A DNA stretch of 16,625 bases. Origin: a virus. Its lineage: Duplodnaviria; Heunggongvirae; Uroviricota; Caudoviricetes. Positions within the stretch are counted from its first letter, which is position 1. Each line of letters begins with the position of its first letter. The translations under genes and the position numbers were made by a program. A model generated the notes under the pieces. The model saw nothing but the letters and a program-made list of their open reading frames with translations. It made no database searches and had not been told where the DNA came from. Shown here piece after piece: positions 2,671 to 16,338 of this stretch. Location of the stretch: the IMG/VR virus record IMGVR_UViG_2778261459_000008. One strand, 5' to 3'.

Positions 2671-3894
2671 ATGGCTGGTGGAACGAACAAATTAAGCGAT
2701 ACATCGCTTCGTAAAATGCTGGGAAGGGAGAGCCCCGGAGACAGCTTCTATGCTGATGGCGATGGGCTAAGTGTGAAGGTGTCCAGATCGGGCGTGTTGA
2801 CTTGGTATTTCACTTTCCGCATAGGTGGCCGGGAATCAACATCTCAGCGTATAAAGCTGGGTAATTATCCAGACCTTTCACTCAAAGCAGCTCGTGAGAA
2901 ACGAGAGCAGTGTCGCGCATGGCTCGCAGAGGGAAAGAATCCAAAGCACCAGTTGAGCGTTACGACTCAGGAAACGTTAAAGCCGGTGACAGTCAGGGAT
3001 GCCCTTGAATACTGGATCAGGGAATATGCCACCCATAACCGCGCTAATGTTGAAAAGCACATTGAGCAGCTCAATAAGCATATCTTTCCTTATATAGGTA
3101 CTTATCCGCTTTCTATGTGTGAAACTCGCCACTGGCTGGAATGTTTCGCCAGGGTAAGGAACGAAGCGCCTGTAGCGGCTGGCTATCTTTTGCAGATGTG
3201 TAAGCAAGCACTCAAGTTCTGCCGGGTTCATCGGTATGCGGTGAGTAACGTCCTGGACGATCTGACCATTGACGATGTTGGACGTAAACAGAATAAGCGG
3301 GACAGGGAGCATACCCGGCAAGAACTTGCTGATATATGGCGAGAATGCTCAGGCCTGAAATTTAAGCCCTACTACTCAGCTCTATTACGTCTGCTGGTGG
3401 TGTTTGGCTGCCGAACTCAGGAGCTGAGATTATCTCGCGTAACCGAATGGGATCTAAATGATTGGGTTTGGACGGTACCTAAAGAGCACAGCAAAGGTGG
3501 TGAGAAAATACTACGGCCTATTCCCGTAGATATTCGCCCATTTATCAAACAGCTTTTAGAGCAGCACCAAAGCACAGGGCTATTGCTGGGAGAGATAAAG
3601 AAACCGGAAGCTGTCAGTCAGTGGGGAAGGATGTTGTATAAGCGTCTGGGCCACTCTGAACCGTGGACGCTTCACGATTTACGCCGTACATTTTCCACGA
3701 CTCTGAACAACATGGGAATTGCTCCGCATGTTGTCGAGCAGCTTCTGGGCCATGCGCTGGGCGGTGTCATGTCCGTATATAACCGCAGTCAGTATTTACC
3801 TGAAAAGCTGGATGCACTGAATAAATGGATGCAGAGATTAGATGTTATTACCTCTGATATCTCAAATGTTACTATTCTTGAGGTCGCAAGATGA
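2671..3894 (+). CDS. int: tyrosine site-specific integrase (P4/CP4-57-like phage integrase family)
   Basis: 407-aa ORF; N-terminal DUF4102-like arm-binding region (GLSVKVSRSGVLTWYFTFRIGGRESTSQRIKLGNYPDLSLKAAREKREQCRAWLAEGKNP); C-terminal catalytic signature (HDLRRTFSTTL ... LGHALGGVMSVYNRSQY); SD GAGG 8 nt upstream of the ATG. Confidence 0.9.
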   Translation: MAGGTNKLSDTSLRKMLGRESPGDSFYADGDGLSVKVSRSGVLTWYFTFRIGGRESTSQRIKLGNYPDLSLKAAREKREQCRAWLAEGKNPKHQLSVTTQETLKPVTVRDALEYWIREYATHNRANVEKHIEQLNKHIFPYIGTYPLSMCETRHWLECFARVRNEAPVAAGYLLQMCKQALKFCRVHRYAVSNVLDDLTIDDVGRKQNKRDREHTRQELADIWRECSGLKFKPYYSALLRLLVVFGCRTQELRLSRVTEWDLNDWVWTVPKEHSKGGEKILRPIPVDIRPFIKQLLEQHQSTGLLLGEIKKPEAVSQWGRMLYKRLGHSEPWTLHDLRRTFSTTLNNMGIAPHVVEQLLGHALGGVMSVYNRSQYLPEKLDALNKWMQRLDVITSDISNVTILEVAR

Positions 3895-4733
3895 TAAAAA
3901 AAATTAACAGTAAAAGAGACTTACCAAAGTCATTCAGCTTAGAAAAATATGATGACCTTGAAAATATGTCTGATAAGGATTTGTTTCGTCAGCTTTATTG
4001 GCGATGCGATGATTTAACAATAAAAAATACAGACTGCCCTGACTATGGTTTGCAATATGGTGCTAAATACCCGCTTAACAATAATTTTGGTGATCCATTC
4101 GGGGAACTCAAAGCAGAAGAATGGTTTCTTGAAAAGCAAAAGGAATACGAGTACAAGACTCAGCCTGATTTGCTGAAATTAAGTTACGGCGATGGTATAA
4201 AACCATTAATGCGATTTGAGTTGGCATTTTTAAATAAAATCAATGCTGATAAAGGTCACTGGAAAGGAAAGCCAATAGTAGTTGACGATGATTTGGTGGG
4301 GGATTTGTTTACAGCAGATAACGGTATGTTTTGGGCTGTCATGCGTGAGCCAGTAAACTTACTTTCTGATGTTGTGGAAAACGTGATGATTACTGTTGAC
4401 TTAAACAACAGAGATGATCTTTTGATTGAAGCATTCACGAACCTCCTCCCAAAATGGCGCGAAGAACTCGGAATACCTGAACCAGATAAGCCAGTCTCAG
4501 GGGACTGGGAGAGCGTCAGACGGAAGATAATTGACTACAGAATAATTCCACTTATTGATTTGATGTCATGGGAAAGCGCTACCGACAGCAAAATATCCCT
4601 TGGCGTACTCGCAGTATCCCTGTTCCCGGATGGGGAAAAGGAGTCCTTTGCCATAGCTCAAACGGTGAAACCTTTCTTGGATAAAATTATGAGAAGTGAT
4701 TCTTTAGATAAAATCAGGAAAGAATTATCTTGA
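3891..4733 (+). CDS. hypothetical protein, 280 aa, AT-rich cargo gene translationally coupled to the integrase (ATGA overlap)
   Basis: Uninterrupted ORF whose ATG overlaps the int stop (ATGA at 3891-3894); visibly lower GC than flanking genes; no motif I can assign; followed by a strong terminator. Confidence 0.6.
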   Translation: MIKKINSKRDLPKSFSLEKYDDLENMSDKDLFRQLYWRCDDLTIKNTDCPDYGLQYGAKYPLNNNFGDPFGELKAEEWFLEKQKEYEYKTQPDLLKLSYGDGIKPLMRFELAFLNKINADKGHWKGKPIVVDDDLVGDLFTADNGMFWAVMREPVNLLSDVVENVMITVDLNNRDDLLIEAFTNLLPKWREELGIPEPDKPVSGDWESVRRKIIDYRIIPLIDLMSWESATDSKISLGVLAVSLFPDGEKESFAIAQTVKPFLDKIMRSDSLDKIRKELS

Positions 4734-4811
4734 TATAACTGAATCAGGGTAACTCCTTTAGAGGAATATAATTTTTTTCTCACCGTCGCGGTGATAATTT
4801 TTTTGAATAAG

Positions 4812-4848
4812 AATGCTCTCGAACCCTAGCGAACGAGAGCATTTTTTT
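4812..4848 (+). terminator. rho-independent terminator after the 280-aa gene; its T-tract runs into the alpA start codon
   Basis: AATGCTCTCG (4812-4821) pairs with CGAGAGCATT (4834-4843), followed by TTTTTTT and then ATG at 4849. Confidence 0.65.
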
Positions 4849-5058
4849 ATGAACAATATTAAACAATCCCAGCAGCCAGCAGAAAGAGTTATCCGTGAGG
4901 CTGAGTGCCGGCAGCTAACCGGTATTTGTCGAACCACTCGATACATGATGGAAAAAGAGGGGAGCTTTCCCGCCCGCCGCAAGCTGGGAGGTCGTGCTGT
5001 TGGTTGGCTTCTGTCTGAGGTCACAGCATGGCAGCAGAGCCGCAGCAAAGCAGCGTGA
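4849..5058 (+). CDS. alpA: AlpA-family phage/island transcriptional regulator (excisionase-like HTH)
   Basis: 69-aa product MNNIKQSQQP...CRQLTGICRTTRYMMEKEGSFPARRKLGGRAVGWLLSEVTAWQQ carries the AlpA signature (LTG.sR.T.Y....G.FP....LGGR.VGW...E...W). Start at 4849 chosen over the upstream in-frame ATG at 4813 by length similarity to AlpA; no clear SD for either. Confidence 0.8.
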   Translation: MNNIKQSQQPAERVIREAECRQLTGICRTTRYMMEKEGSFPARRKLGGRAVGWLLSEVTAWQQSRSKAA

Positions 5059-5399
5059 GGGGTGGGAAATGTCACATAAAACAAAAGCGGCCATGCAGGG
5101 CCGCCAATGTCACTACCAAAAACTTAAGCAAAGTCAGGATACCAGGGTTAATGCTAGTGGTCAAAGCCAGAGCGCTGCTGGGATTAAAGGAACTGCGGCA
5201 TTGGCGCACACCCTATTTCCCCAAATCTGGGGAGAACTGGATCATCATGCGGGGTGTGCTGCAATGCAGCATACCCCGGAGAAATCCCGTAGTTTCGACA
5301 AATACCCAGATATTGGGTGTTATGGCCTGCATAAAATCACACCTGCGGTTCTTATTCCTGTCCCCGGCTCTTCTTTAGCTCATTTGCAATGGCGGATAT

Positions 5400-5654
5400 T
5401 TAATCACGTGGTAACCAGCCTTTCGCATTCCTTTTGGGGATTGGAAGGTTCTTTTCCTTCAAAATACGTAAAATGGCAGGTTCTGAATGTGGTCCCCAAC
5501 CATCCCAATTACCTTCCCAACAGTCGTTACAGCAGAAAGCCCTACCGTATAATTGCAGTACACGTCCTTGGTAAAGGTCTGGGCCAAATCGTGTTTCTGA
5601 TCCACAGACTTCACATGTGCAATAAAAATGCCCTTTCTCATCTATGCGCATCAT
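5400..5654 (-). CDS. hypothetical Cys-rich small protein (putative zinc-binding), second gene of a two-gene minus-strand operon
   Basis: Product MMRIDEKGHFYCTCEVCGSETRFGPDLYQGRVLQLYGRAFCCNDCWEGNWDGW... contains C-x-C-x2-C and CC-x2-C clusters; GAGGA sits 5 nt upstream of the ATG at 5654; it lies 1 nt downstream of the stop of the upstream RHH gene. The ORF track extends it to a TTG at 5666. Confidence 0.5.
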   Translation of the reverse strand: MMRIDEKGHFYCTCEVCGSETRFGPDLYQGRVLQLYGRAFCCNDCWEGNWDGWGPHSEPAILRILKEKNLPIPKRNAKGWLPRD

Positions 5655-5667
5655 CTTCTTCCTCAAA

Positions 5668-5877
5668 TCAACCTTTTGGTTCTATTCCTTGCCGACGCAA
5701 TTCCGCGCGAGCTAATTCTTTTATCCAATTACCAAGACTTACGCCTTCGCGCTCCGCTGCATCGTTCAGTTGCTGGCGTAGATCAGGGTTGATTCTGATC
5801 TGGAAAGTAGGTGACCAGCCATCACCTTTAGGGGTTTTGTCTCGTTTAATTGTTGACACGTACGTACATAACCTCAT
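5668..5877 (-). CDS. ribbon-helix-helix (CopG/Arc/MetJ-like) DNA-binding protein; start codon uncertain (ATG at 5877 or GTG at 5859)
   Basis: The C-terminal 45 aa (SPTFQIRINPDLRQQLNDAAEREGVSLGNWIKELARAELRRQ) has the beta-strand plus two-helix pattern of RHH repressors. The ORF-track N-terminal extension to 5970 is merely the translation of the palindrome and is unlikely to be coding. Confidence 0.55.
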   Translation of the reverse strand: MRLCTYVSTIKRDKTPKGDGWSPTFQIRINPDLRQQLNDAAEREGVSLGNWIKELARAELRRQGIEPKG

Positions 5878-5904
5878 AGCATGTATTTTGTTATGTACGT
5901 ACGT
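5858..5904. promoter_or_regulatory. perfect 15-bp inverted repeat (ACGTACGTACATAAC, 17-bp spacer, GTTATGTACGTACGT): candidate operator in the divergent control region
   Basis: Read directly: 5858-5872 is the exact reverse complement of 5890-5904. It lies between the minus-strand RHH gene and the plus-strand replication operon starting at 5993; TTGACA is at 5852-5857. Confidence 0.6.
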
Positions 5905-5992
5905 TATCACGTCTGGCATAGAAAAGACAACGCCCCAAACTGTTGGAGCAGTATTGGGGCGTCTAACCAAACCGTTAGTTGAGGTAACAGTT

Positions 5993-6205
5993 ATGGCTGA
6001 ATTACAGCATACCCAAACTCGCCCGGAATTTACATGGAGATTTATCTCTGCTTCTGAGCGCTACCCTACCGCCAAACCATTGGTGATCTACGTCAACGCA
6101 TCCAGCGAACAGGAGGCCCGCGACACTATGCCGGGTGTAAACCTCATTTTCGCAGCACGTCTCCCATTCCATGCCTTTCAGGCAATGGAGGTACGCCATG
6201 CGTGA
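5993..6205 (+). CDS. hypothetical protein, 70 aa, first gene of the replication-module operon
   Basis: ATG at 5993 with GAGG 8 nt upstream; product MAELQHTQTRPEFTWRFISASERYPTAKPLVIYVNASSEQEARDTMPGVNLIF...; stop overlaps the next start. The 403-aa track ORF 4994-6205 is mostly spurious read-through; only this 3' part looks genic. Confidence 0.5.
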   Translation: MAELQHTQTRPEFTWRFISASERYPTAKPLVIYVNASSEQEARDTMPGVNLIFAARLPFHAFQAMEVRHA

Positions 6206-6383
6206 ATTAACCAATAAAAGTGCGTCAATAGCCTGTGAACTGGCTGCGTTGTTGATGGTTGTCGAAGAGTGCGACGTTGATCAGGTTGAGCGTGAAAACC
6301 TTATCAGTCTGGCCAGACGAGTATCGGATCAACTGGCGGCAAGCATGGTCGAGCAGAATTCAACGGGGGGGCTCAATGGATAA
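6198..6383 (+). CDS. hypothetical small protein, 61 aa, paralogue of the next gene
   Basis: ATG at 6198 with GGAGG 6 nt upstream; overlaps upstream stop and downstream start. Confidence 0.5.
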   Translation: MRELTNKSASIACELAALLMVVEECDVDQVERENLISLARRVSDQLAASMVEQNSTGGLNG

Positions 6384-6603
6384 CTTTTACACCTACCGCA
6401 GCAAAAAAGATTTGCTGTTACTGGCGCAAGAGGTTGCCGCGCTTCTGTCATGTGCTGCTTACCTTGCGACTACCAGAGGCGAGGAAGAGCGTATCCATGT
6501 AATGAGTTTGACGCACCTGGCTCAACGGCTTTCTGACGAGCTGGCAAACTCACTGGATATTTCTACTTTTTCAGACCCTGAATCGCGGGAGGCAAAATCA
6601 TGA
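6376..6603 (+). CDS. hypothetical small protein, 75 aa, paralogue of the previous gene
   Basis: ATG at 6376 preceded by a G-rich SD-like run; shares the pattern A..LAALL...ER...SLA.R.SD.LA.S with the 6198-6383 product; overlaps the next start (ATGA at 6600-6603). Confidence 0.5.
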   Translation: MDNFYTYRSKKDLLLLAQEVAALLSCAAYLATTRGEEERIHVMSLTHLAQRLSDELANSLDISTFSDPESREAKS

Positions 6604-6968
6604 TCAGCAATGTGAAGTTTTACGAGCTGGCTAAGCGCGTTGATCTGCTGGTTGAAAAGGTTTTGCATCTTGAGGCACAGGTTAAGTCACTCACTGATAG
6701 TCAGGGGGGGGAAATCCCTCCGGGTATGACGCCAGTAGCAACACTGGCCGCTGAATACGGTATCTCAACCAATAAGGCTGAGGAACTGGCGAAAAACACA
6801 GGGGTGATGCTGGTTAAGCTGAAATCTGGCGGGTTCGTTGCACCTGATGAAAAGTTCAGGGAAGCGGCGCGTCTGGTGCTGCGCAGCGCTAAGCGCAAAT
6901 ATGGCTCTGCGTACTGGTTCCATCCTCTGATCGGCAAATTCCAGATGAGCGGGGGCATTCCAAAATGA
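6600..6968 (+). CDS. hypothetical protein, 122 aa, translationally coupled to the helicase gene
   Basis: ATG at 6600 with GGGAGG 8 nt upstream; ATGA overlap with the downstream gene at 6965-6968; no recognisable motif. Confidence 0.55.
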   Translation: MISNVKFYELAKRVDLLVEKVLHLEAQVKSLTDSQGGEIPPGMTPVATLAAEYGISTNKAEELAKNTGVMLVKLKSGGFVAPDEKFREAARLVLRSAKRKYGSAYWFHPLIGKFQMSGGIPK

Positions 6969-8329
6969 CGGTACAACTGACAGCTGTAGAAACCGTTTCT
7001 GATGCCCTGTTCACCTGTTCGTATCTGTGGGCGCACGGCAAGCAATACAGTCGCAGCGATTTGGATAAAGCGCTCCACCAGCATAAGGACCCCACTACCC
7101 GTTACGGAAAGCTGGTGGCTCGCCTCAACCAGATAGCAGCAATGCCGTATGAGGAACTCTGTGATGCCGGATATCTCGATACGGACCGCAAACAAATGAT
7201 TACAGCGCGGCGTTCTGTGCTGGTGGAAGAGATAGGCGAAGGGGAAATGAATGCCATGCTGTCTGACGTGCAGCGCATTCACCGGGTCTTCCCTGATGCT
7301 GGTGCAAAGTTCAGGACAAAGCTGCCTCTCTCTCGCGGTTCTGAGGGCTTTGATATCCGTCAGGACTATGTCCTTAAACACTTTCTGCCAGCGCAATCAC
7401 TGTGCAGCATTTACGGTCCCAGCGGTTCGTATAAGAGTTTTCTCGCTGTATCGTGGGCCTGTCACATTGCTGCGGGTCTGCCATGGGCTGGGAAGAAGGT
7501 CACTTCCGGCGCGGTGCTGTATGTGGTTGGTGAGGGGGGCGTAGGCGTTCCCCGGCGTATAAAGGCTTGGGAGCAGGTGCACGGCATACAGGCGGACAAC
7601 CTCTGGCTGGTCAATCGTCCGGTGTTTCCTGTGCGCGAGTCAGAGGTAACGGAAGTGCTTCTGGCTGCCAGACAGATTGAAGCTGAATGTGGTGTGCCGG
7701 TTCGCATGGTGGTGATCGATACGCTGGCCCGTTGTTTTGGCGGTAACGACGAGAACGATGCTCGTGATATGGGGGCATTTATTGAAGGGTGTGACGTTAT
7801 CAAACAGAAAACGGGTGCAACGGTGCTGATAGTTCACCACTCCGGCAAAGATGAAGGGAAAGGCGCTCGCGGTTCCAGTGCTTTCCGCGCTGCGCTTGAT
7901 ACTGAATTTAACGTTAAGCGTGAAGGGGATGGAAAGGCGCTTATTCTGACCTGTACCAAGATGAAAGACGCGGAGGAGCCAGAGCGTAAAGCGTATGACC
8001 TGAGAACGGCAGAGCTTTACACCGATGAAGATGGTGAGCTTGTTTGCTCTCTGGTTGTGCACGATCAGCCGAGAGAGGCTAAAGAGGTTGAGCCTGAACT
8101 GGCCAATGTCTCCCGTCTTAGCGATAACCACCATGCATTATGGCAGGCAGTACGCAGCCGCACAGCTAAGGGGGAGCCATGCACTATCTCCGTCATTAAA
8201 GATGATCTGCGTGCAACACTGGGGACAGATAAAGTGAGAAAGTCATTCTCGCGCTGGCTGGACAAGCTGGAGAGTGAGCAAATTATTCGCATCGAGGGTG
8301 AGAACCTTTACCCGGTAACAGTCGAGTAA
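6965..8329 (+). CDS. replication initiator/helicase, RecA-like AAA_25 (RepA-like) ATPase with predicted C-terminal winged-helix DNA-binding domain
   Basis: Walker A (IYGPSGSYKSF), Walker B-like (VRMVVIDTLARCFGG), HHSGKD motif; C-terminal about 90 aa basic and helical; immediately followed by iterons. Confidence 0.8.
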   Translation: MTVQLTAVETVSDALFTCSYLWAHGKQYSRSDLDKALHQHKDPTTRYGKLVARLNQIAAMPYEELCDAGYLDTDRKQMITARRSVLVEEIGEGEMNAMLSDVQRIHRVFPDAGAKFRTKLPLSRGSEGFDIRQDYVLKHFLPAQSLCSIYGPSGSYKSFLAVSWACHIAAGLPWAGKKVTSGAVLYVVGEGGVGVPRRIKAWEQVHGIQADNLWLVNRPVFPVRESEVTEVLLAARQIEAECGVPVRMVVIDTLARCFGGNDENDARDMGAFIEGCDVIKQKTGATVLIVHHSGKDEGKGARGSSAFRAALDTEFNVKREGDGKALILTCTKMKDAEEPERKAYDLRTAELYTDEDGELVCSLVVHDQPREAKEVEPELANVSRLSDNHHALWQAVRSRTAKGEPCTISVIKDDLRATLGTDKVRKSFSRWLDKLESEQIIRIEGENLYPVTVE

Positions 8330-8330
8330 A

Positions 8331-8522
8331 TGCGGCGGTAAGTGCGGCATGTGCGGCATTTAGTATGTTTTATGACCAAATGCCGCACTTAGCCCCTGTA
8401 TACACGCGCTAAGTGCGGCATTTCACTGAAACCACCGTCATTACTGGTTTTGCATGATTTTTTGAGATAACTGGTGCGGCGCTAAGTGCGGCATTACTAA
8501 ACGCGGCACTAAATGCGGCAAG
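8331..8522. repeat. iteron array (replication origin): about 6-7 copies of TAAGTGCGGCATT-like repeats in both orientations plus an AT-rich stretch
   Basis: Copies read at about 8339-8349, 8351-8360, 8379-8393 (reverse), 8410-8424, 8484-8497 and 8510-8522, with degenerate TGCGGCGG at 8331 and CGCGGCAC at 8502; AT-rich 8440-8470. Confidence 0.75.
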
Positions 8523-8543
8523 TTAGACAAACAAGGAGAATTT

Positions 8544-8783
8544 ATGCCTATTACGATTCATGAAATAAAGGAACATTACGATTATTACGGGCTTCATGAT
8601 ATGGTCTCCATGTCAACGAAAGAATACCAACAGATTTTAGCTAATGGTGCTTTGTTCTGGATGGATCATCATGATTTTGTTCGCAGCACTCTTTCCGATG
8701 AAATCTTGGCAACAAACAAGGAGCAACTAGATGCAATAATTGAGCATCTACAACAATACAGAGACAGAATGCCTTCTGCCTAG
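8544..8783 (+). CDS. hypothetical small protein, 79 aa, AT-rich cargo
   Basis: ATG at 8544 with AAGGAG 5 nt upstream; product MPITIHEIKEHYDYYGLHDMVSMSTKEYQQILANGALFWMDHHDF...; followed by a hairpin at 8793-8813. Confidence 0.6.
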   Translation: MPITIHEIKEHYDYYGLHDMVSMSTKEYQQILANGALFWMDHHDFVRSTLSDEILATNKEQLDAIIEHLQQYRDRMPSA

Positions 8784-8792
8784 AAATTTGTT

Positions 8793-8813
8793 AGGGGCTG
8801 ATTCCAAGCCCCT
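8793..8813. terminator. hairpin between the convergent 79-aa and 414-aa genes (likely bidirectional terminator)
   Basis: AGGGGCT-gattcca-AGCCCCT: 7-bp stem, 7-nt loop; flanks only moderately T/A-rich. Confidence 0.45.
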
Positions 8814-8820
8814 GAATGTT

Positions 8821-10065
8821 TCAATAATTAAAGTGACTTTCAACTGAAAGTTGTTTGCAGCCCAATAATTTTAAAGCTTTTCGAATGTAATATAAAGCAG
8901 CGGTATTGTCGATAATGTAGCGGAAGGCTTCATTTTTATCTTGTTGTGCATCTCTTAAATTTCTTTCAAATTCTCTTTCATAATCTTCTGCGTAATATTG
9001 ATTGGATTGTCGGCCCATAATAATCAATGTGGTTAAATCTGCTAATTCTTCCTCTGAAAAGAGAGGTAGGTAAGTAGTGGTGATGCGCATTTTTAACCGT
9101 AGGTAGTCTAAAAAATCTTCTGCTCTGATATCGGATAAACTAATTCCTGAATCCTGTAGTGGGTCCAGAAATACGTTATTTTTTTTCATTACGTCTTTTA
9201 TATGTAGTGCGTACCAAGCTTTTTTAAAACGCAATAGTGTATTTTTCCCGCTATGTTTAAGTGGAAATTCAACGCCAATTAAAGATGATAGGTATCTATT
9301 TACAACAATTTTGTCGATTGCTTTTATAAGTTGTTTGTTGCTATTGAGATTAAATTTTTTCTTGATGAATTCCTTTTTTTTCACTGTAAGTGTAGTTACC
9401 CATTCATTTTTATTACCTAGAGCTTTTGAAAGCTTGATTAGATCACGGCGTGAAAATTTATCGGTATACGTACCTGTTTTATACTCATCTTTCAGATTTA
9501 GAGTGAGCTTAATTATTTCTCGCAAACCTTCCGTGAGCTTTTTGAAATAAACAACAAATCTTACAAGGTTAATGATCGGTGTTTTTTCCAAATGTGTCGC
9601 TCCGACATTGGACTCAGGGTATCTAAAAGTTTGTGCTGTGTCGTCTATAGCCACAAAGTCTAATATATAAGGCTCGATTTTTTTTGTAATGTGAAATAGT
9701 CGTATATCTGTCCTCTCAGCGACATCAATCGTGGCATCCCATAGTTTCTTGATGCTGTGGATTTTTGTCACATCAGGAACTGATATCGCCAATCCTCGGA
9801 GATCTGCCATGTCAATGAGGATAGTCTTTAGAGAAAGCTCAATTCCGTGCCTGGCAGAGTAGGCAATCGGATAAACAAGTAAATCAACTTCTCCTCTCTT
9901 GTTATTTTTGTATATATAGTCAGTAAGTATCTCTGGGGTTCTAAGGTAACCTTCAGCATAAGTTAATGAGTCAGGGAAACCATTCGTTCCGACGCAAGCA
10001 TTCAGCCAATCAAATCGACCATTGCCCAAACCAAAGGTGTTATTAAAGATTGTTTCTTTTTCCAT
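8821..10065 (-). CDS. hypothetical protein, 414 aa, AT-rich cargo gene on the opposite strand to the island backbone; candidate accessory/anti-phage function
   Basis: Uninterrupted minus-strand ORF with ATG at 10065 and AAGGA 8 nt upstream; markedly AT-rich versus flanking replication and capsid genes; no Walker, HNH, DPPY or other catalytic motif recognised. Confidence 0.7.
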   Translation of the reverse strand: MEKETIFNNTFGLGNGRFDWLNACVGTNGFPDSLTYAEGYLRTPEILTDYIYKNNKRGEVDLLVYPIAYSARHGIELSLKTILIDMADLRGLAISVPDVTKIHSIKKLWDATIDVAERTDIRLFHITKKIEPYILDFVAIDDTAQTFRYPESNVGATHLEKTPIINLVRFVVYFKKLTEGLREIIKLTLNLKDEYKTGTYTDKFSRRDLIKLSKALGNKNEWVTTLTVKKKEFIKKKFNLNSNKQLIKAIDKIVVNRYLSSLIGVEFPLKHSGKNTLLRFKKAWYALHIKDVMKKNNVFLDPLQDSGISLSDIRAEDFLDYLRLKMRITTTYLPLFSEEELADLTTLIIMGRQSNQYYAEDYEREFERNLRDAQQDKNEAFRYIIDNTAALYYIRKALKLLGCKQLSVESHFNY

Positions 10066-10312
10066 TAATCGATCCTTGCTTTGTAAATTATTTGTTCAAT
10101 GTCGTTCATTGCTGTTTGAATCAAAAAATACTCGTTTACATCAATAATTCAATATATATCTTAAAGAGTGGCACTCAGACGTGAGCCGCCACTGTTGCCG
10201 TCCGATCCCCTGCGCGATGCCGGGTTGATCTGCGAGATGCCGAGAGTGTCGGGCGGCGCTCCCTCCGTGTTGGTTTCACGTCCTGAATCTTAACCAATAC
10301 GAGAAAACCTTC

Positions 10313-11482
10313 ATGAAGAAATTAATCGAACTCCGCCAGCAAAAAACCGCCCTGAAAAACCAGATGCGATCCCTGCTGGAAAAAGCCGACAGTGAAAACC
10401 GCAGTCTGACCGATGACGAGGGCAAACAGTTTGATGAACTGCGTGCAAAAGCTGATTCCCTCGATACAGACATTTCCCGCCTCGAGTCTGTGGCTGATGA
10501 AGAACGCAGCAAGCCAGGAACGGGCATCCAGAAATTATCATCTGATGAATTGCGTAACTACATCGTAACCGGAGATGTGCGATCTCTGTCCACCAGCACT
10601 GACAGCGGCAGGGATGGCGGATATACCGTAATTCCTGAGCTTGATCGCGAAGTCATGCGCCAGCTACAGGATGACAGTGTTATGCGCGTGATCGCGACCG
10701 TGAAGACTGCAAAATCAAATGAGTTTCAGAAACTGGTTTCCACTGGCGGCGCAACTGTAGGACGAGGCACAGAAGGCAGCGCACGCAGTGAAACCAACAC
10801 CCCGAAAATTGAACGCGTAACCATCAAGCTGAATCCGATCTACGCCTACCCGAAAACCACGCAGGAAATCCTGGATTTTTCAGAGGTGGATATTCTGGGC
10901 TGGTTATCCTCCGAAATTGCCGACACGTTCGCCAGCACCGAAGAGGATGATTTTGTTAATGGCGACGGTAACGGCAAGCCGAAAGGCTTCATGGCTTACA
11001 CCCGTGCGGCGACCAGTGACAAAACCCGCGCTTTTGGCACCATTGAAAAAATGGTAGCGGCAAGTGGAACCGCCATTACAGCGGACGAACTGATCGACAT
11101 TCTCTACAAGCTGAAAGCGAAATACCGCAAAAATGCCGTCTGGGTGATGAACTCGGGCACGGCAGGGACACTACAGAAGCTGAAAAATGAGAACGGCGAT
11201 TATATCTGGCGCGACAGCCTTAAAGAAGGTGCGCCGGATATGTTGCTTGGTCGTCCTGTTTACTGCCTGGAGTCCATGCCGGACATCGGCGCAGGAAAAG
11301 CACCGCTAGCGGTTGGCGATTTCAGTCGTGGTTATTTCATCGTTGATCATGTAACAGGGATTCGCACCCGACCGGACAACATTACTGAACCCGGATTCTA
11401 CAAGGTCCACACGGATAAATATCTGGGCGGTGGTGTGGTGGATTCAAACGCCATCAAAATTCTGGAAATGAAAGCTGGCTAG
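10313..11482 (+). CDS. major capsid protein, HK97 fold, with N-terminal coiled-coil delta (scaffold) domain
   Basis: 389 aa; N-terminal about 70 aa is a charged coiled coil (LIELRQQKTALKNQMRSLLEKADSENRSLTDDEGKQFDELRAKADSLD); FVNGDGNGKPKGF motif typical of HK97-family capsids; strong terminator immediately downstream. Confidence 0.85.
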   Translation: MKKLIELRQQKTALKNQMRSLLEKADSENRSLTDDEGKQFDELRAKADSLDTDISRLESVADEERSKPGTGIQKLSSDELRNYIVTGDVRSLSTSTDSGRDGGYTVIPELDREVMRQLQDDSVMRVIATVKTAKSNEFQKLVSTGGATVGRGTEGSARSETNTPKIERVTIKLNPIYAYPKTTQEILDFSEVDILGWLSSEIADTFASTEEDDFVNGDGNGKPKGFMAYTRAATSDKTRAFGTIEKMVAASGTAITADELIDILYKLKAKYRKNAVWVMNSGTAGTLQKLKNENGDYIWRDSLKEGAPDMLLGRPVYCLESMPDIGAGKAPLAVGDFSRGYFIVDHVTGIRTRPDNITEPGFYKVHTDKYLGGGVVDSNAIKILEMKAG

Positions 11483-11494
11483 TCATGAGTAAGG

Positions 11495-11517
11495 AGGAGG
11501 CTGCGGCCTCCTTTTTC
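11495..11517 (+). terminator. rho-independent terminator directly after the capsid gene
   Basis: AGGAGGC-tgcg-GCCTCCT followed by TTTTT. Confidence 0.65.
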
Positions 11518-11536
11518 AGCTTTATGGAGTACACCG

Positions 11537-12097
11537 ATGAAAAACACCGATTTTGAAATCCGCACATCTGAACTGACCGCCAGCAATAAAAAGCTGGTGG
11601 GGTATGCCGTTCGCTGGAACAGCCTTTCAGAAATTATCTGGGACGAATTCCGCGAACAGTTCACGCCGGGGGCTTTTGCTGACTATCTGGCGGCGGGTAA
11701 TGATGTGCGCTGCCTGTATGAGCATGACTATACCCAACTGCTGGGGCGCACCAAATCCGGCACTCTGGTACTGACTGAGGATAACACCGGGTTACGTTTT
11801 GAGCTGACACCGCCGGATACCCAGCTTGGAAAAGATGTGCTTACGCTGGTGGAGCGTGGCGACATTACAGGAATGAGCTTTGGTTTTCGCGCATTATGCG
11901 AGGAGTGGAGTATCGCGCAAAAACCGTATCTGCGTACCGTAACCGCCGCTGAACTCCGTGAAATCACAATAACGTCGATGCCTGCTTATCCAGAATCTGG
12001 CGTGGAGATTGCCCGCCGTTCGTTGTTTGCACAGCACCCTGAATTACGTCCGACAGGAAATAATCGTCATCGTTGGTCTGAGTTGGCGGGGTTGTGA
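11537..12097 (+). CDS. prohead maturation protease (HK97 family, S78/U35-like)
   Basis: 186 aa; N-terminal ...KKLVGYAVRWNSLSEII...FTPGAF pattern typical of HK97 prohead proteases; GGAG 7 nt upstream of the ATG. Confidence 0.8.
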   Translation: MKNTDFEIRTSELTASNKKLVGYAVRWNSLSEIIWDEFREQFTPGAFADYLAAGNDVRCLYEHDYTQLLGRTKSGTLVLTEDNTGLRFELTPPDTQLGKDVLTLVERGDITGMSFGFRALCEEWSIAQKPYLRTVTAAELREITITSMPAYPESGVEIARRSLFAQHPELRPTGNNRHRWSELAGL

Positions 12098-12098
12098 T

Positions 12099-13313
12099 AT
12101 GTGGTGGCCTTTTAGTCGTAAAAAAAGCGAGCAGCGTAACCTGTCCATTGATGATTTTCTGGCGCTGTCCGGCGTACCGAATACCGGATCCGGAGAATAT
12201 GTTTCTGCCGGGACGGCTGAATCATTGCCTGCAGTGATGAACGCGGTTTCTGTCATCGCTGAGGCGGTGGCCACGATGCCGTGTTATCTGTATCTGGTAC
12301 GTAATGACAAGGGCAGGGAGGCGCGGGAATGGCTGGACAGTCACCCGGTAGATATTCTGCTGAATGAGCAGCCTAATTCGTGCCAGACACCTTACCAGTT
12401 TAAACGCACAATGATGCGTCACTGCCTGCTGAACGGTAACGCCTATGCGGTTATTGAGTGGGGGCGGGACGGGCAGCCCAAATCACTTCATCCTTATGCA
12501 CCGGGTTGTGTTGTACCGGAACGCACAGGCGCACACAAATACCGATATACCATCACCGAACCCTATACAGGAACGGTGCGCACGTATTTACAGGAAGAAG
12601 TTCTGCATCTCCGCTATGCCTCGGATGATGGCTTTCTGGGGCGCTCCCCCGTCACGATTTGCCGTGAGGCACTTGGGCTTGGCCTTGCTCAACAGCGCCA
12701 CGGAGCCAGCATTATGAAAGATGGCATGATGGCGGCAGGGATTATCACGTCAGGCGAATGGCTGGACGGCGTGAAAGGTAAACAGGCATTAGATGCTCTG
12801 GAACGCTACAAGGGGGCGAAAAATGCCGGAAAAACGCCAATCCTTGAAGGGGGCATGGATTACAAGCAACTGGGAATGAGTAACCAGGATGCGGAATGGC
12901 TGGCCTCCCGTCGCTTCTCCATTGAAGACATCGCCCGCATGTTCAACGTATCGCCTATTTTTCTGCAGGAATACAGCAACAGCACCTACAGCAATTTCAG
13001 CGAGGCAAGCCGCGCGTTTCTGACCATGACAATGCGCCCATGGCTGGCGAACTTCGAACAGCAAATCAAGGCCGCTTTGCTGGTGGCTTCTCCCGTACCT
13101 GGTACCCGTTATCTGGTTGAGTTTGATTCAGCCGATTTATTACGCGCCACACCCACCGAACGTTATGCCACGTATGAGAAAGGGATTAAGAACGGGATCA
13201 TGAATCCGAACGAAGCCCGTGAGCGTGAGGGTATGCCGCCGCGTGAAGGTGGTGACGAGTTCAGCCAGGCATGGAAGCAGACTGTGGAAATTAAAGGTGA
13301 AAAAGATGAGTGA
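12099..13313 (+). CDS. portal protein (HK97 family)
   Basis: 404 aa from the ATG at 12099 (2 nt after the protease stop); conserved portal block RRFSIEDIARMFNVSPIFL; the ORF track's upstream extension to 12009 overlaps the protease gene and is unlikely. Confidence 0.85.
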   Translation: MWWPFSRKKSEQRNLSIDDFLALSGVPNTGSGEYVSAGTAESLPAVMNAVSVIAEAVATMPCYLYLVRNDKGREAREWLDSHPVDILLNEQPNSCQTPYQFKRTMMRHCLLNGNAYAVIEWGRDGQPKSLHPYAPGCVVPERTGAHKYRYTITEPYTGTVRTYLQEEVLHLRYASDDGFLGRSPVTICREALGLGLAQQRHGASIMKDGMMAAGIITSGEWLDGVKGKQALDALERYKGAKNAGKTPILEGGMDYKQLGMSNQDAEWLASRRFSIEDIARMFNVSPIFLQEYSNSTYSNFSEASRAFLTMTMRPWLANFEQQIKAALLVASPVPGTRYLVEFDSADLLRATPTERYATYEKGIKNGIMNPNEAREREGMPPREGGDEFSQAWKQTVEIKGEKDE

Positions 13314-13608
13314 ATCCAGAATTACGCTTAATGAAGTAATGGCCCATCTTCGCCTTGATGATGATTTTTATGGTGAGGTTGAACTTCTGCAAATATATAC
13401 CGATGCGGCGCTGGAAGCCTGCCAGAAGCATATCGGGAAACGTTTTGAAGACGGCCTGGAATTTACCCCGGCAATACGTGTTGGTTGCCTGATGTACATC
13501 GCTTTTCTGTACGAGAACCGGGAAGCGGTTTCACCAGTTGAGCACTCGGAACTGCCTATGGCTATTTCTGCGCTCTGGTCGGTTTATCGTGATGTGGGGG
13601 TGTACTGA
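13306..13608 (+). CDS. head-tail connector / DNA-packaging protein (gp6-like)
   Basis: 100 aa from the ATG at 13306, overlapping the portal stop; N-terminal ITLNEVMAHLRLDDDFYGEVELLQIYTDAALEA pattern typical of gp6-like connectors. Confidence 0.7.
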   Translation: MSESRITLNEVMAHLRLDDDFYGEVELLQIYTDAALEACQKHIGKRFEDGLEFTPAIRVGCLMYIAFLYENREAVSPVEHSELPMAISALWSVYRDVGVY

Positions 13609-14048
13609 TGCCGTGGCAACCATTAAGGCGATGCACTGAGCCGGGCTGTAATAAGCGCGTGAAGTCCGGCAAGTGTGAAGAGCACAGGCGGGCTGCATGG
13701 CGTGCAGAGGATGCCAGACGGGGACACCGCCGCGCACGTGGGTATTCCCGACAGTGGGACAAATACCGCGCCCTGTACCTGAGCAAAAACCCGTTATGCG
13801 TGCGTTGTCTGGCTAAGGGTATTTATACACCAGCTCTTGTGGTGGATCACATCATTCCCATCAATGGCGGCGGTGATGTTCTCTTCTGGCCTGAGTGGAA
13901 TCACCAGGCATTGTGCCAGACGTGCCACAACCGTAAGACGACACGGGAAGATCCAGCCACGAAAGCAAACCGTAAAGCGGGCATGTATCGCGAGCAGGAA
14001 GAACGGGCGGCACACCGTAACGACTGGATGTATGGCGATGATGACTGA
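13608..14048 (+). CDS. HNH endonuclease (packaging-associated)
   Basis: 146 aa; CxxC ... DHIIP ... H ... CQTCHNRK zinc-finger HNH signature; start overlaps the connector stop (TGATG). Confidence 0.85.
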   Translation: MPWQPLRRCTEPGCNKRVKSGKCEEHRRAAWRAEDARRGHRRARGYSRQWDKYRALYLSKNPLCVRCLAKGIYTPALVVDHIIPINGGGDVLFWPEWNHQALCQTCHNRKTTREDPATKANRKAGMYREQEERAAHRNDWMYGDDD

Positions 14049-14217
14049 ACAGGAGCAAACCAGGCTGATACGTGGACTGATAAGGCAGCGTGACACATGG
14101 AAGACACAGGAGACAGAGCACAAAGCCAACAGGACAGGGCGCACAAAACGCACCACAGCGAAGCGATTAACCGACCGTGACCGCGAGGTCATGGAATGTT
14201 TTCGCAATCGCTGGTGA
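14041..14217 (+). CDS. possible small basic protein, 58 aa, overlapping the HNH stop; uncertain
   Basis: ATG at 14041 in an ATGA-type overlap with the HNH stop; product MTEQEQTRLIRGLIRQRDTWKTQETEHKANRTGRTKRTTAKRLTDRDREVMECFRNRW; no clear SD. Confidence 0.3.
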   Translation: MTEQEQTRLIRGLIRQRDTWKTQETEHKANRTGRTKRTTAKRLTDRDREVMECFRNRW

Positions 14218-14336
14218 GGCCGTCAGAGGGGGTGGGGGTGGTTTTCAGGACGAAACCGTCCCTGCCGGACACCGACCGCCCCCTCAAATTTTTGTGCACG
14301 GTAATTTTTTTGAAAATAATTGGGCGAAAAAAGAAC

Positions 14337-14693
14337 ATGGCAAGACCACCAAAAGCCCCCGCTTACCTGGATGAAATCGCGGTCAGGCAGTGGAAGGAAA
14401 AATCGCGCCAGCTTTCCGGGCGGGAAGACCTTACCCCCGCCGACTGGAGCAATCTGGAACTGTATTGTGTTAACTACTCCATATACCGCAAAGCCGTCGA
14501 AGACCTTGCGACGCGCGGGTTCAGCATTGTTAACAGTCAGGGCAGCGAGAGCAGAAACCCCGCACTGAGCGCAAAGGCTGACGCAGAAAGAATAATGATC
14601 AAAATGGCTTCTTTGCTGGGTTTTGACCCGGTAAGCCGTCGCAGAAATCCACCGGAAACAGAGGAAGAGGACGAACTTGACCGCCTGGCATGA
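14337..14693 (+). CDS. terminase small subunit (P27-family-like)
   Basis: 118 aa from the ATG at 14337 (MARPPKAPAYLDEIAVRQWKE...), an N-terminus typical of P27-type TerS; lies directly upstream of and overlaps TerL. Confidence 0.75.
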   Translation: MARPPKAPAYLDEIAVRQWKEKSRQLSGREDLTPADWSNLELYCVNYSIYRKAVEDLATRGFSIVNSQGSESRNPALSAKADAERIMIKMASLLGFDPVSRRRNPPETEEEDELDRLA

Positions 14694-16338
14694 GTACGCA
14701 GAAGGCGTAAAAAACGGCAAAATTACGGCCTGTAAACGACTGAAACAGGCCGTTAAACGGTATTTTTCTGACCTTGAAAACTCCCTTTACACGTTCGATC
14801 CGGAGGTCGTGGAGCGGTTTATTGCCTTTTCCCGGGTGTGTCCGCACGTAAAAGGCGCAATGCGCGGTAGTCCCATTGAACTGGAGCCGTGGCAGCAGTT
14901 CGCCTTTGCCTGCATCCTGGGCTTTAAGGTTAAGGCCACCGGACGGCGCAAATACACCAGCGCATTCATTGAAGTACCGCGAAAAAATGCCAAATCCACG
15001 GTCGCCGCTATCCTGGCTAACTGGTTTCTGGTTATGGAAAACGGGCAGCAGGATATTTACACCGCCGCCGTGAGTCGTGATCAGGCGCGGATCGTGTTTG
15101 ATGATGCGCGTCAGATGTGCCTTTTATCCCGACCGTTACGAAAGCGGGTAAATATTCAGGCGCACAAGGTGATACACCCGAAAACCAACAGCCTGTTAAA
15201 GCCACTGGCAGCAAAAGCGGCAACCATTGAGGGGACAAACCCGAGTCTTGCCATTGTGGATGAATATCACCTGCACCCAGACAACGGGGTTTATTCCGCA
15301 CTTGAGCTGGGGATGGGGGCGCGTCCGGAGGGGCTGTTATTTGCCATCACCACATCGGGGAGCAACGTTGTTTCAGCCTGTAAACAACACTATGACTATT
15401 GCTGTCAGATACTGGATGGTGAAGAGATGAACGAATCCATGTTCGTTCTGATTTACGAGCTGGATGATGAAAGCGAGGTTGACGATCCGGCGATGTGGAT
15501 AAAGGCGAATCCAAATATCGATGTTTCCGTCGATCGTGAAAAACTGGCCTCAACCATCCAGAAAGCGCGGGGTATTCCGTCGCAGTGGGTGGAAATGCTC
15601 ACCAAGCGATTCAATATCTGGTGTCAGGGGGCTACGCCGTGGATGGGTAACGGTGCATGGGCGGAGTGCGCCGGAACGTTCGCGGAGGCGGATTTATACG
15701 GGCAGGAGTGCTACGCGGGGCTGGACTTATCATCAACCAGCGATATTTCCAGCGTGTGCTATGCCTTTCCGGTCGGTAAAAAGATTATGCTGGTTTCCCG
15801 TCACTATCTGCCGGAATTTCAGCTACAGAACCCCGCCAATAAAAACCGCGCCATCTATCGCCAGTGGGTAAAGGCGGGCTGGATACGCACAACACCGGGT
15901 GACTGCATTGATTATGACCGTATCCGTGATGACATCATGGCGGATGCAGAGAATTTCAATATCAGGCTGGTGGGCTTCGATACATGGAACGCCACGCACC
16001 TGAGGACGCAGCTACAGGGGGCAGGATTTGAGGTGGAGCCGTTCCCGCAAACATACCTTCGTTTCAGTCCGGCGGCGAAATCGTTCGAAGTTTTTGTTAA
16101 CCGGAAGGTGATTGTGCATCGTGGTGATCCGGTGCTGGCCTGGTCAATGAGTAATGTTGTGATGCAGAGTGACGCGAACGCCAATATCAAGCCGAACAAG
16201 AAAAAATCATCCAACAAGATAGACCCGAGCGTTGCGGCGCTGATGGCGTTTGGCACATTCCAGGCAGAGCATGAGGAATTTGCATTTGATATGAGCGACA
16301 GCCACAAAGAGCGACTTGCGGCGTTTGATGGGGTATGA
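14677..16338 (+). CDS. terminase large subunit (ATPase/nuclease)
   Basis: 553 aa; apparent TTG start at 14677 with AAGAGG 6 nt upstream (no in-frame ATG/GTG until about residue 61); Walker A-like VPRKNAKST; acidic nuclease-domain motifs; 16-nt overlap with TerS. Confidence 0.85.
   Translation: MTAWHEYAEGVKNGKITACKRLKQAVKRYFSDLENSLYTFDPEVVERFIAFSRVCPHVKGAMRGSPIELEPWQQFAFACILGFKVKATGRRKYTSAFIEVPRKNAKSTVAAILANWFLVMENGQQDIYTAAVSRDQARIVFDDARQMCLLSRPLRKRVNIQAHKVIHPKTNSLLKPLAAKAATIEGTNPSLAIVDEYHLHPDNGVYSALELGMGARPEGLLFAITTSGSNVVSACKQHYDYCCQILDGEEMNESMFVLIYELDDESEVDDPAMWIKANPNIDVSVDREKLASTIQKARGIPSQWVEMLTKRFNIWCQGATPWMGNGAWAECAGTFAEADLYGQECYAGLDLSSTSDISSVCYAFPVGKKIMLVSRHYLPEFQLQNPANKNRAIYRQWVKAGWIRTTPGDCIDYDRIRDDIMADAENFNIRLVGFDTWNATHLRTQLQGAGFEVEPFPQTYLRFSPAAKSFEVFVNRKVIVHRGDPVLAWSMSNVVMQSDANANIKPNKKKSSNKIDPSVAALMAFGTFQAEHEEFAFDMSDSHKERLAAFDGV

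What the first reader, a model, noticed from the sequence alone, without database searches (positions are those of the whole stretch)
4812..4851. Terminator hairpin ends directly at the alpA start codon, with no SD
The T-tract of the hairpin (4812-4843) is contiguous with the ATG at 4849, and an alternative in-frame ATG at 4813 lies inside the stem. alpA translation would therefore depend on read-through or structure-coupled initiation, a possible attenuator on the island's master activator.
Basis: seen in the sequence. Interest (0 to 1): 0.35.

Follow-up and report, generated by a model that had tools for sequence, protein, structure and literature searches.

The report
RBS-locking terminator hairpin before alpA
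The stem-loop just before the phage-satellite master switch gene alpA is a real, evolutionarily conserved RNA structure that hides the ribosome-binding site and looks like a transcription stop, most likely keeping the switch silent on transcripts that read in from upstream genes.

Summary
A perfect 10-bp stem (4812-4821/4834-4843, 12-nt loop, -16.1 kcal/mol, z = -6.7) runs into a U7 tract that abuts the alpA ATG at 4849. An in-frame ATG (4813) lies in the 5' arm.

The hairpin is conserved before alpA in 51 distinct sequences from many enterobacterial genera. Eleven of 13 pairs show compensatory changes, and G.U outnumbers A.C 51 to 6, so it is a plus-strand RNA structure. "No SD" needs qualifying. 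The 3' arm always carries the SD-like purine run: GAGGG, GGGAG or AGGAG in relatives, and a weak GAGAG here.

The U-tract is present in 39 of 51 sequences, so RBS sequestration is the invariant property and termination is an added one. Opening the RBS costs about 14.5 kcal/mol in any transcript that holds the 5' arm, against 2.7 if transcription starts inside the hairpin. The only conserved -10-like hexamer (AAGAAT, 4809-4814) would place the start there.

Best reading: a double lock that insulates alpA from int-operon read-through, as in IS200, IS10 and sigG. It is a new member of a known kind, and it is absent from Rfam and from the papers searched.

The parts
3891..4733 (+). DUF6387-family gene between int and alpA. 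It is the upstream transcription unit whose read-through would reach alpA.
   Evidence: Pfam PF19924, E = 6e-30; PGAP annotation in the identical HZ13 locus.
4780..4804 (+). Upstream terminator T1: stem TCACCG/CGGTGA with a 3-nt loop (4780-4794), then TAATTTTTTT.
   Evidence: Called by the terminator scan; folds independently of the main hairpin; inverted repeat I2.
4809..4814 (+). -10-like hexamer AAGAAT overlapping the 5' edge of the stem. It is a candidate alpA promoter element that would put the transcription start near G4821/A4822, inside the hairpin.
   Evidence: It is the only position in -70..+30 with a consistently positive -10 PWM score across 50 of the 51 distinct relatives (one misaligned row, L015, left out): mean +2.5 bits, 70% above 3 bits, against 22% or less elsewhere. 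Consensus is WAAAAT. No conserved -35. This is inferred, not shown.
4812..4821 (+). 5' arm of the hairpin (AAUGCUCUCG). It is pyrimidine-rich and resembles the anti-SD. It contains the in-frame ATG 4813-4815.
4822..4833 (+). 12-nt loop AACCCUAGCGAA. Its length is kept at 12 nt in most relatives (longer in a few, e.g. L009, L041, L050, L055), and the flanks AAC...GAA are conserved, giving a direct repeat CGAAC-N5-CGAAC.
   Evidence: Alignment A2.
4834..4843 (+). 3' arm (CGAGAGCAUU) carrying the SD-like GAGAG at 4835-4839.
   Evidence: Anti-SD duplex scan. The probability that 4835-4839 is unpaired is 0.000 in every transcript that holds the 5' arm.
4842..4848 (+). U7 tract, which is both the terminator tail and the SD-AUG spacer.
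   Evidence: At least 5 U of 7 in 39 of 51 distinct relatives; the tail is 7 nt long in 45 of 51.
4849..5058 (+). alpA (69 aa; Phage_AlpA wHTH regulator/excisionase family).
   Evidence: Pfam PF05930, E = 9e-16; PHROG 2790; PGAP CDS WP_014072030.1; PDB 8c3t AlpA-family protein, E = 6e-10 with the profile.

Best explanation
The hairpin is a conserved cis-acting RNA element that forms the 5' boundary of the alpA module of this fis-site capsid-forming PICI.

On any transcript that includes its 5' arm (that is, read-through from the int-DUF6387 unit, or a start upstream of 4809), it does two things. First, it base-pairs the SD-like purine run with an anti-SD-like pyrimidine run, so the 30S subunit cannot load. 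Second, in this island the U7 tail makes it a moderate intrinsic terminator, placed in tandem with T1 (4780-4804). Together these form a double lock that insulates the autoactivating master switch alpA from upstream transcription.

Release is most likely by transcription that starts inside the hairpin. An activator-dependent promoter whose -10 is AAGAAT (4809-4814) would give an mRNA beginning near G4821/A4822. That mRNA lacks the 5' arm, cannot fold or terminate, and has an open RBS.

Shown: the structure, its covariation, its strand, its attachment to alpA, the location of the SD, and the energetics.
Inferred: actual termination (probability about 0.5) and the internal promoter (about 0.4).
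For: Structure and selection: -16.1 kcal/mol, z = -6.7. In 51 distinct upstream sequences, 89% of cells are paired, 11 of 13 pairs have double-sided changes, and 0 of 500 shuffles reach the observed values; slid controls give 39-58% paired. RNAalifold finds the same stem on its own.

Strand: 51 G.U against 6 A.C in the 10 core pairs.

Attachment to alpA: 40 of 45 hits to the hairpin pattern in IMG/VR lie 7-8 nt before an alpA start. L036 loses homology to the window after int and regains it exactly at 4812. Three different upstream gene modules join the same hairpin.

RBS lock: the best anti-SD duplex lies in the 3' arm in all 51 sequences. Distant Shewanella, Psychromonas and Pseudomonadales homologues have different stems that still bury GGAG or GAGG. 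The opening cost is 14.4-14.9 kcal/mol against 2.7 kcal/mol.

Terminator: U7 here, and a U-rich tail in 39 of 51 sequences (19 of 20 in DUF6387-type islands).

Internal promoter: there is a single conserved -10-like peak, ending at T4814, and it is kept in 10 of 12 relatives that have no U-tract to pair with. The 5' partners at columns 12-13 vary less than their 3' partners. In relatives, two 10-bp palindromes lie 32.5 and 53.5 nt upstream of that T, which is -39.5 and -60.5 from the implied start and matches activator-type spacing. No canonical sigma-70 promoter is found between 4734 and 4849.

Precedents: the IS200 left end (PMC4513863), and the sigG read-through hairpin that cannot form in the PsigG transcript (PMC5942855).
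Against: There are no transcript-end or expression data for this alpA clade. The characterised PICIs EcCICFT073 and EcCIMP1 have alpA leaders without this hairpin.

As a terminator the element is atypical: a 12-nt loop and only 5 G-C pairs, and the generic scan does not call it.

The SD here is weak (GAGAG, -3.0 kcal/mol), and the SD-AUG spacing of 9-10 nt is on the long side.

The -10-like hexamer lacks a -35. It has T rather than A at its second position in 15 of 51 sequences. Its A-richness could partly reflect pairing with the U-tract.

The relatives are not independent samples, so the shuffle statistics overstate significance.
Confidence: 0.6

Rival explanations
1. Regulated attenuator. 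Every alpA transcript starts upstream and carries the hairpin. Helper-phage induction works by overcoming it, through processive antitermination or an RNA-binding or unwinding factor, so the hairpin is the cis target of induction.
For: Helper phages raise alpA expression by an unknown route, partly independent of AlpA (PMC6092414, PMC11773190). Two tandem terminator-like hairpins precede alpA. A perfect TATAAT (4767-4772) and a GATAAT (4793-4798) lie upstream. No canonical promoter was called between the hairpin and the ATG. The loop sequence is conserved, as a recognition site would be.
Against: No alternative (antiterminator) pairing is predicted. There is no nut, put or C4/isrK-like Rfam hit. 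TATAAT and GATAAT are confined to the window's close relatives, whereas the hairpin-edge hexamer is family-wide. A fifth to a quarter of relatives have no U-tract, so antitermination cannot be the general release. Even after read-through the RBS would stay locked at 14.5 kcal/mol.
Confidence: 0.2
2. An ordinary intrinsic terminator of the int-DUF6387 operon that happens to abut the next gene. The SD-like content of the stem is incidental.
For: The stem plus U7 lies 79 nt after the DUF6387 stop. U-rich tails occur in 19 of 20 DUF6387-type islands.
Against: T1 already follows the operon. The hairpin travels with alpA and not with the upstream module. It persists without a U-tract in 12 of 51 sequences. 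The 7-nt distance to the ATG is fixed in 45 of 51. The purine arm is always on the 3' side and matches the anti-SD. The 12-nt loop is unusual for terminators.
Confidence: 0.1
3. A DNA-level inverted repeat, or the loop's direct repeats CGAAC-N5-CGAAC, serving as an operator for AlpA or another protein.
For: The 12-bp spacing is fixed, the loop flanks are conserved, and both change together to CGTTC-N5-CGTTC in one clade. AlpA autoregulates in other PICIs.
Against: 51 G.U against 6 A.C shows selection on one RNA strand and not on duplex symmetry. AlpA bodies that are 92% identical occur with (L002) and without (L006) the hairpin. The half-site is not repeated elsewhere in the window beyond chance.
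Confidence: 0.05
4. Translation starts at ATG 4813, giving an 81-aa AlpA or a short leader ORF whose translation opens the hairpin.
For: The ATG is in frame here. An ATG is present in 42 of 51 relatives, and it is in frame and open in 32.
Against: It has no SD and lies in the stem. It is absent in 9 sequences, out of frame in 7 and stopped in 3. Covarying stem positions would give radical L/P, E/G and H/R substitutions. The Pfam domain and PGAP support 4849.
Confidence: 0.03

Closest known systems
IS200 left end (terminator hairpin plus SD-sequestering 5'UTR stem-loop of tnpA; PMC4513863 and Beuzon et al. 1999 cited there)
   Same: Both are mobile elements that put a rho-independent terminator against impinging transcription in tandem with a stable stem-loop that buries the SD of a gene whose leaky expression would be costly. 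The window has T1 plus the RBS hairpin in the same order.
   Different: In IS200 the native tnpA transcript contains the SD hairpin and is further controlled by an antisense sRNA and Hfq. Here the hairpin itself also carries the U-tract, no antisense RNA is evident, and the native transcript may lack the 5' arm. There is no sequence relationship.
Hairpin that blocks translation of sigG on read-through transcripts from spoIIG in Bacillus subtilis (PMC5942855)
   Same: Both concern an autoregulated master regulator placed downstream of another operon. A hairpin occludes its RBS only on read-through transcripts, because the gene's own promoter fires inside the structure.
   Different: The sigG hairpin is more than 20 bp and has no terminator tail, and its transcription starts are mapped experimentally. 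Here the internal start is only inferred.
IS10/IS50 'fold-back inhibition', protection from external promoters (Davis, Simons & Kleckner 1985; Krebs & Reznikoff 1986; from my own knowledge, not retrieved)
   Same: The logic is the same: outside transcripts pair an upstream segment with the transposase RBS, and the pIN transcript starts downstream of that segment.
   Different: The gene class and the sequences differ, and there is no U-tract.
Canonical intrinsic (rho-independent) terminators and leader attenuators
   Same: A stem followed directly by a U7 run, located in a leader.
   Different: The loop is 12 nt and the stem is half A-U. There is no competing antiterminator fold and no leader peptide, and the U-tract is dispensable in a fifth to a quarter of homologues.
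P4 satellite immunity (CI RNA with seqA/seqC premature termination; Rfam C4/isrK)
   Same: A satellite that controls its early or regulatory genes by transcription termination near an alpA/vis homologue.
   Different: There is no Rfam C4 or isrK match in the window, and no trans RNA partner was identified.

Membership tests
Intrinsic (rho-independent) terminator | Stable G+C-rich stem of about 5-14 bp | tested here: met
   10 perfect pairs (5 G-C), -16.1 kcal/mol with the A-U/G.U extension.
Intrinsic (rho-independent) terminator | Short loop (about 3-8 nt) | tested here: not met
   The loop is 12 nt, and the scan with a 3-8 nt loop limit does not call it.
Intrinsic (rho-independent) terminator | U-tract immediately 3' of the stem | tested here: met
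   U7 at 4842-4848.
Intrinsic (rho-independent) terminator | The U-tract is conserved wherever the hairpin is conserved | tested here: inconclusive
   At least 5 U of 7 in 39 of 51 sequences, absent in 12.
Intrinsic (rho-independent) terminator | Transcripts actually end there | not testable with these tools
   Needs Term-seq or in vitro transcription.
RBS-sequestering leader hairpin (translational repressor structure) | The SD or start region is base-paired within a stable local structure | tested here: met
   The SD-like run is in the 3' arm in all 51 sequences. P(unpaired) is 0.000 and the opening cost is 14.4-14.9 kcal/mol.
RBS-sequestering leader hairpin (translational repressor structure) | Pairing is maintained by compensatory evolution on the mRNA strand | tested here: met
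RBS-sequestering leader hairpin (translational repressor structure) | Stem disruption raises translation | not testable with these tools
   Needs reporter fusions or toeprinting.
Fold-back inhibition of read-through transcripts (IS10/IS50/sigG type) | The gene's own promoter starts between the two arms, so the native mRNA lacks the 5' arm | tested here: inconclusive
   A conserved -10-like hexamer ends at T4814. Palindromes lie at activator spacing in relatives. There is no -35 and no transcription-start data.
Leader-peptide transcription attenuator (trp/his type) | A leader ORF plus mutually exclusive antiterminator and terminator folds | tested here: not met
   Only one fold is predicted in contexts of 46-156 nt. 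The upstream ATG is not conserved as an ORF.
Any curated RNA family (Rfam 15, including C4/isrK and riboswitches) | Covariance-model match | tested here: not met
   No hit at gathering thresholds in the whole window. Only chance-level hits at E of 1.9 or more in 4700-5100, none on the hairpin.
Q-like / Pseudomonas AlpA processive antitermination | The regulator is homologous to P. aeruginosa AlpA, and a loading site sits in the promoter upstream of the terminator | tested here: not met
   The 69-aa PICI AlpA matches only PDB 8c3t (AlpA-family wHTH) and not the Pseudomonas AlpA-RNAP complexes. Pseudomonas AlpA is a larger 8-helix protein with its HTH near residues 128-142. They share a name, not ancestry.

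The most novel reading that the evidence does not exclude
The hairpin (with T1) is the cis-acting sensor through which the helper phage switches this clade of PICIs on. A helper-encoded function, such as termination-resistant RNA polymerase or an RNA-binding or unwinding factor that recognises the conserved AAC...GAA loop, lets transcription and translation pass the lock. This would supply the missing link between helper infection and alpA expression.
Probability: 0.12. Interest if true: 0.75.

Novelty: new member of a known kind. Interest (0 to 1): 0.4.

Why it matters
AlpA is the master activator of Gram-negative PICIs, and how helper phages turn it on is still unknown (PMC6092414; PMC11773190). 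This work defines a compact, covariation-supported RNA element of about 40 nt and a candidate promoter geometry at the exact 5' edge of the alpA module, in a widespread clade that includes cross-genus capsid-forming PICIs.

It explains how an autoactivating switch placed directly downstream of constitutively needed int genes can stay off. It also gives precise, cheap experiments: transcription-start mapping, and stem and compensatory mutants. The mechanism class itself (terminator plus RBS occlusion against read-through) is already known from insertion sequences and from sigG.

Tried and rejected
1. Pseudomonas aeruginosa AlpA antiterminator as an explanation, with AlpA reading through its own leader terminators. 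Rejected: it shares only the name. There is no sequence match in the PDB searches, and its size and architecture differ.

2. Rfam families, including P4 C4/isrK immunity RNAs, riboswitches and put/nut-like elements: no hits.

3. Transfer of published alpA promoter data. EcCICFT073 (L112 19526) and EcCIMP1 (L158) belong to other alpA clades, with strong exposed SDs and no such hairpin, so their reporter results cannot be mapped onto this element.

4. N-terminal extension or uORF from ATG 4813: not conserved.

5. AlpA operator: the half-site is not enriched elsewhere in the window, and AlpA does not covary with the hairpin.

6. Search for a conserved -35, or for any other conserved promoter in the 80-nt spacer of DUF6387-type islands: none found. 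There are only A/T-rich tracts around -60 to -43 of the inferred start.

7. Function of the neighbouring DUF6387 protein and of the alternative 'cluster 0' protein: no informative Pfam, PHROG or PADLOC hit.

8. Four literature searches found no description of a leader structure for PICI alpA.

Full report
CONTEXT. The window is E. coli chromosome (envR, yhdJ) followed by an island integrated at the fis 3' end; the att core TTAGTTCATGCCGTA lies at 2469-2483 (core as given in PMC10111431). The island encodes the following genes:
- a tyrosine integrase (2671-3894)
- a DUF6387 protein (3891-4733)
- AlpA (4849-5058)
- a minus-strand YlcI/HicB-like gene
- an Icd-like gene
- a RepA-type helicase
- a full HK97-type head and packaging module

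It is therefore a capsid-forming PICI of the kind described in bioRxiv 10.1101/2022.09.08.507074. The locus is identical in E. coli HZ13, where PGAP starts alpA at the ATG corresponding to 4849.

OBSERVATION. The hairpin is real.
- The arms 4812-4821 and 4834-4843 are perfectly complementary. The loop is 12 nt.
- A run of seven T (4842-4848) starts inside the stem and ends at the ATG.
- RNA folding gives -16.1 kcal/mol, with z = -6.7 against shuffles. The repeat finder extends the arms to 13 nt.
- ATG 4813 lies in the 5' arm and is in frame.
- A second terminator-like hairpin with its own T run lies at 4780-4804.

THE HAIRPIN IS CONSERVED AND IS AN RNA STRUCTURE.
- I collected alpA homologues from E. 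coli genomes, one genome per species and IMG/VR. This gave 78 distinct upstream sequences.
- The same stem-loop sits in the same place in about 60 of them. The hosts span Enterobacter, Phytobacter, Kosakonia, Raoultella, Hafnia, Buttiauxella and others.
- On an alignment of 51 distinct sequences (A2) the named structure has 89% of cells paired and 11 of 13 pairs with changes on both sides. No shuffle of 500 reaches the observed values, and partners slid by 1-3 columns give only 39-58% pairing.
- RNAalifold recovers the core stem unaided, with 6 of 7 pairs covarying.
- In the ten core pairs there are 51 G.U cells and only 6 A.C. Selection therefore acts on the plus-strand RNA and not on duplex DNA symmetry.

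THE HAIRPIN BELONGS TO alpA.
- A scan of IMG/VR with the hairpin pattern alone returned 45 loci. In 40 of them an alpA start (ATG, or GTG in two) follows 7-8 nt later.
- Three unrelated gene modules can lie between int and the hairpin.
- In L036, homology to the window stops at the end of int (3894) and resumes exactly at 4812.
- The hairpin is clade-specific. L006-type alpA has a body 92% identical to L002 but a different N-terminus, and it lacks the hairpin. The experimentally studied EcCICFT073 and EcCIMP1 also lack it.

WHAT IS INVARIANT.
- The 3' arm always contains the purine run that best pairs with the 16S anti-SD. It is GAGGG, GGGAG, AGGAG or GAGGA at -5.9 to -6.9 kcal/mol in 40 of 51 sequences, ending 9-10 nt before the ATG. 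The window and its closest relatives have the weaker GAGAG (-3.0), compensated by C to U in the 5' arm.
- Distant homologues in Shewanella, Psychromonas and a Pseudomonadales MAG have unrelated stems that still bury GGAG or GAGG.
- The distance from stem to ATG is 7 nt in 45 of 51 sequences.
- The U-tract is variable: at least 5 U of 7 in 39 of 51, and absent in 12. It is nearly universal (19 of 20) in islands that, like the window, carry DUF6387 upstream, against 18 of 28 in the other main type (these sequences are not independent).
- RBS sequestration is therefore the family-wide property. Termination is an added property of a large subclade that includes this island.

ENERGETICS. The cost of making 4831-4861 single-stranded is 14.4-14.9 kcal/mol for transcripts that start at 4734, 4779 or 4805. 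It is 2.7 kcal/mol for a transcript that starts at 4821 or 4822. The SD-like bases are unpaired with probability 0.000 in the first case and 0.71 in the second. No alternative fold competes with the hairpin.

WHERE DOES alpA TRANSCRIPTION START? This part is inferred.
- The generic scan finds no sigma-70 promoter between 4734 and 4849.
- A -10 weight matrix slid across the 51 relatives (50 scored; the misaligned row L015 left out) gives one outstanding position: the hexamer ending at the T that corresponds to 4814. Its mean is +2.5 bits and 70% of sequences exceed 3 bits, against 22% or less everywhere else. The consensus is WAAAAT.
- The hexamer is kept in 10 of the 12 sequences that have no U-tract for its A residues to pair with. 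The 5' partners of pairs 12-48 and 13-47 vary much less than their 3' partners.
- There is no conserved -35, as expected for an activator-dependent promoter.
- In relatives whose int-alpA spacer gene is an uncharacterised protein of about 250 aa, two perfect 10-bp palindromes (GTGATATCAC or GGAAnTTTCC types) lie at fixed centres 32.5 and 53.5 nt upstream of that T. That is about -39.5 and -60.5 from a start 7 nt downstream, the classic class II and class I activator spacing.
- DUF6387-type islands have A/T-rich tracts in the corresponding -60 to -43 region.
- A start near G4821/A4822 would yield an mRNA without the 5' arm: no hairpin, no terminator, open RBS.
- This logic is documented for sigG, where the hairpin forms only in read-through transcripts (PMC5942855). 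It is also documented for IS10 and IS50 (my own knowledge). The tandem arrangement of terminator and SD hairpin matches the IS200 left end (PMC4513863).

ALTERNATIVES.
(a) A regulated attenuator opened by a helper function remains possible. Helpers induce alpA by an unknown route (PMC6092414; PMC11773190). However, it does not explain the homologues without a U-tract or how the RBS would be freed.
(b) A plain operon terminator is contradicted by the modular linkage to alpA, by T1, and by the fixed geometry relative to the ATG.
(c) A DNA operator is contradicted by the G.U versus A.C asymmetry, and by near-identical AlpA proteins occurring with and without the hairpin.
(d) Initiation at ATG 4813 is contradicted by its patchy conservation and by the radical substitutions that the covarying positions would impose.
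(e) The Pseudomonas AlpA antiterminator shares only the name.

NOVELTY. There is no Rfam match, and four literature searches found no description. The element is a previously undescribed, well-supported cis-regulatory RNA motif, but it uses a known mechanism. I rate it a new member of a known kind, of moderate interest.

Noticed in passing
L005 about 2950-3036 (also L004, L010, L017, L019, L057, L071, L074, L080, L082, L083, L036, L100 and others); absent from the window: In relatives whose gene between int and alpA is an uncharacterised protein of about 250 aa (no Pfam, PHROG or PADLOC hit), two perfect 10-bp palindromes (GTGATATCAC type or GGAAnTTTCC type) lie at fixed centres 32.5 and 53.5 nt upstream of the hairpin-edge hexamer. 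The palindrome type tracks the C-terminus of that protein and not AlpA. This is a candidate regulator and operator pair controlling alpA, possibly the unidentified regulator of Gram-negative PICIs.
   Followed up: partly
window 3894-4812 versus L036: This is a mosaic junction. L036 is 98% identical to the window up to the end of int (3894), unrelated across the accessory gene, and 96% identical again from exactly 4812, the first base of the hairpin. The int-alpA spacer is an exchangeable cassette bounded by the hairpin.
   Followed up: partly
L002 3197-3418 versus L006 2977-3183: These AlpA proteins are 92% identical from residue 12 onward, but their first 6-11 codons and leaders are unrelated (L006 has no canonical hairpin). 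A second recombination boundary therefore lies inside the alpA N-terminus.
   Followed up: partly
window 4820-4834: The loop contains a direct repeat CGAAC-N5-CGAAC (4820-4824 and 4830-4834). In the L083/L084/L088/L095 clade both copies read CGTTC, and the loop gains two inner pairs with a GCAA or GUUA tetraloop. The reason for the loop conservation is unexplained; it could be the initial transcribed sequence or a recognition site.
   Followed up: no
window 5853-5904: A perfect 15-bp inverted repeat (ACGTACGTACATAAC at 5858-5872 and GTTATGTACGTACGT at 5890-5904) overlaps a promoter-like site (TTGACA-18-TAGCAT, 5853-5882) between the minus-strand ylcI-like gene and the icd-like operon. It is a likely operator of the island's main rightward promoter.
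   Followed up: no
window 5086-5667: A strong minus-strand terminator (5105-5086) lies 28 nt after the alpA stop and would shield alpA from antisense transcription. The 560 nt between it and the ylcI-like gene (5106-5667) carry no annotated gene in the identical RefSeq locus.
   Followed up: no
window 2833-16625; L008; L119: The island is rare in E. coli (6 of 5426 complete genomes at 99% or more). It is 99.86% identical over 13.8 kb to an IMG/VR contig and 97% identical over 1.7 kb (AlpA 100%) to Enterobacter soli. This fits the reported cross-genus spread of cf-PICIs.
   Followed up: partly
window 8821-10065 (minus strand): A 414-aa ORF on the opposite strand lies between the replication and capsid modules, the usual accessory-gene slot. 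It has only a sub-threshold DUF3775 match and no PADLOC hit, so its function is unknown.
   Followed up: partly
window 4767-4772 and 4793-4798: A perfect TATAAT with no -35 lies just before T1, and a GATAAT lies in the 3' half of T1. Both are conserved only among the window's close relatives. They are possible alternative starts that would produce transcripts containing the whole lock.
   Followed up: partly
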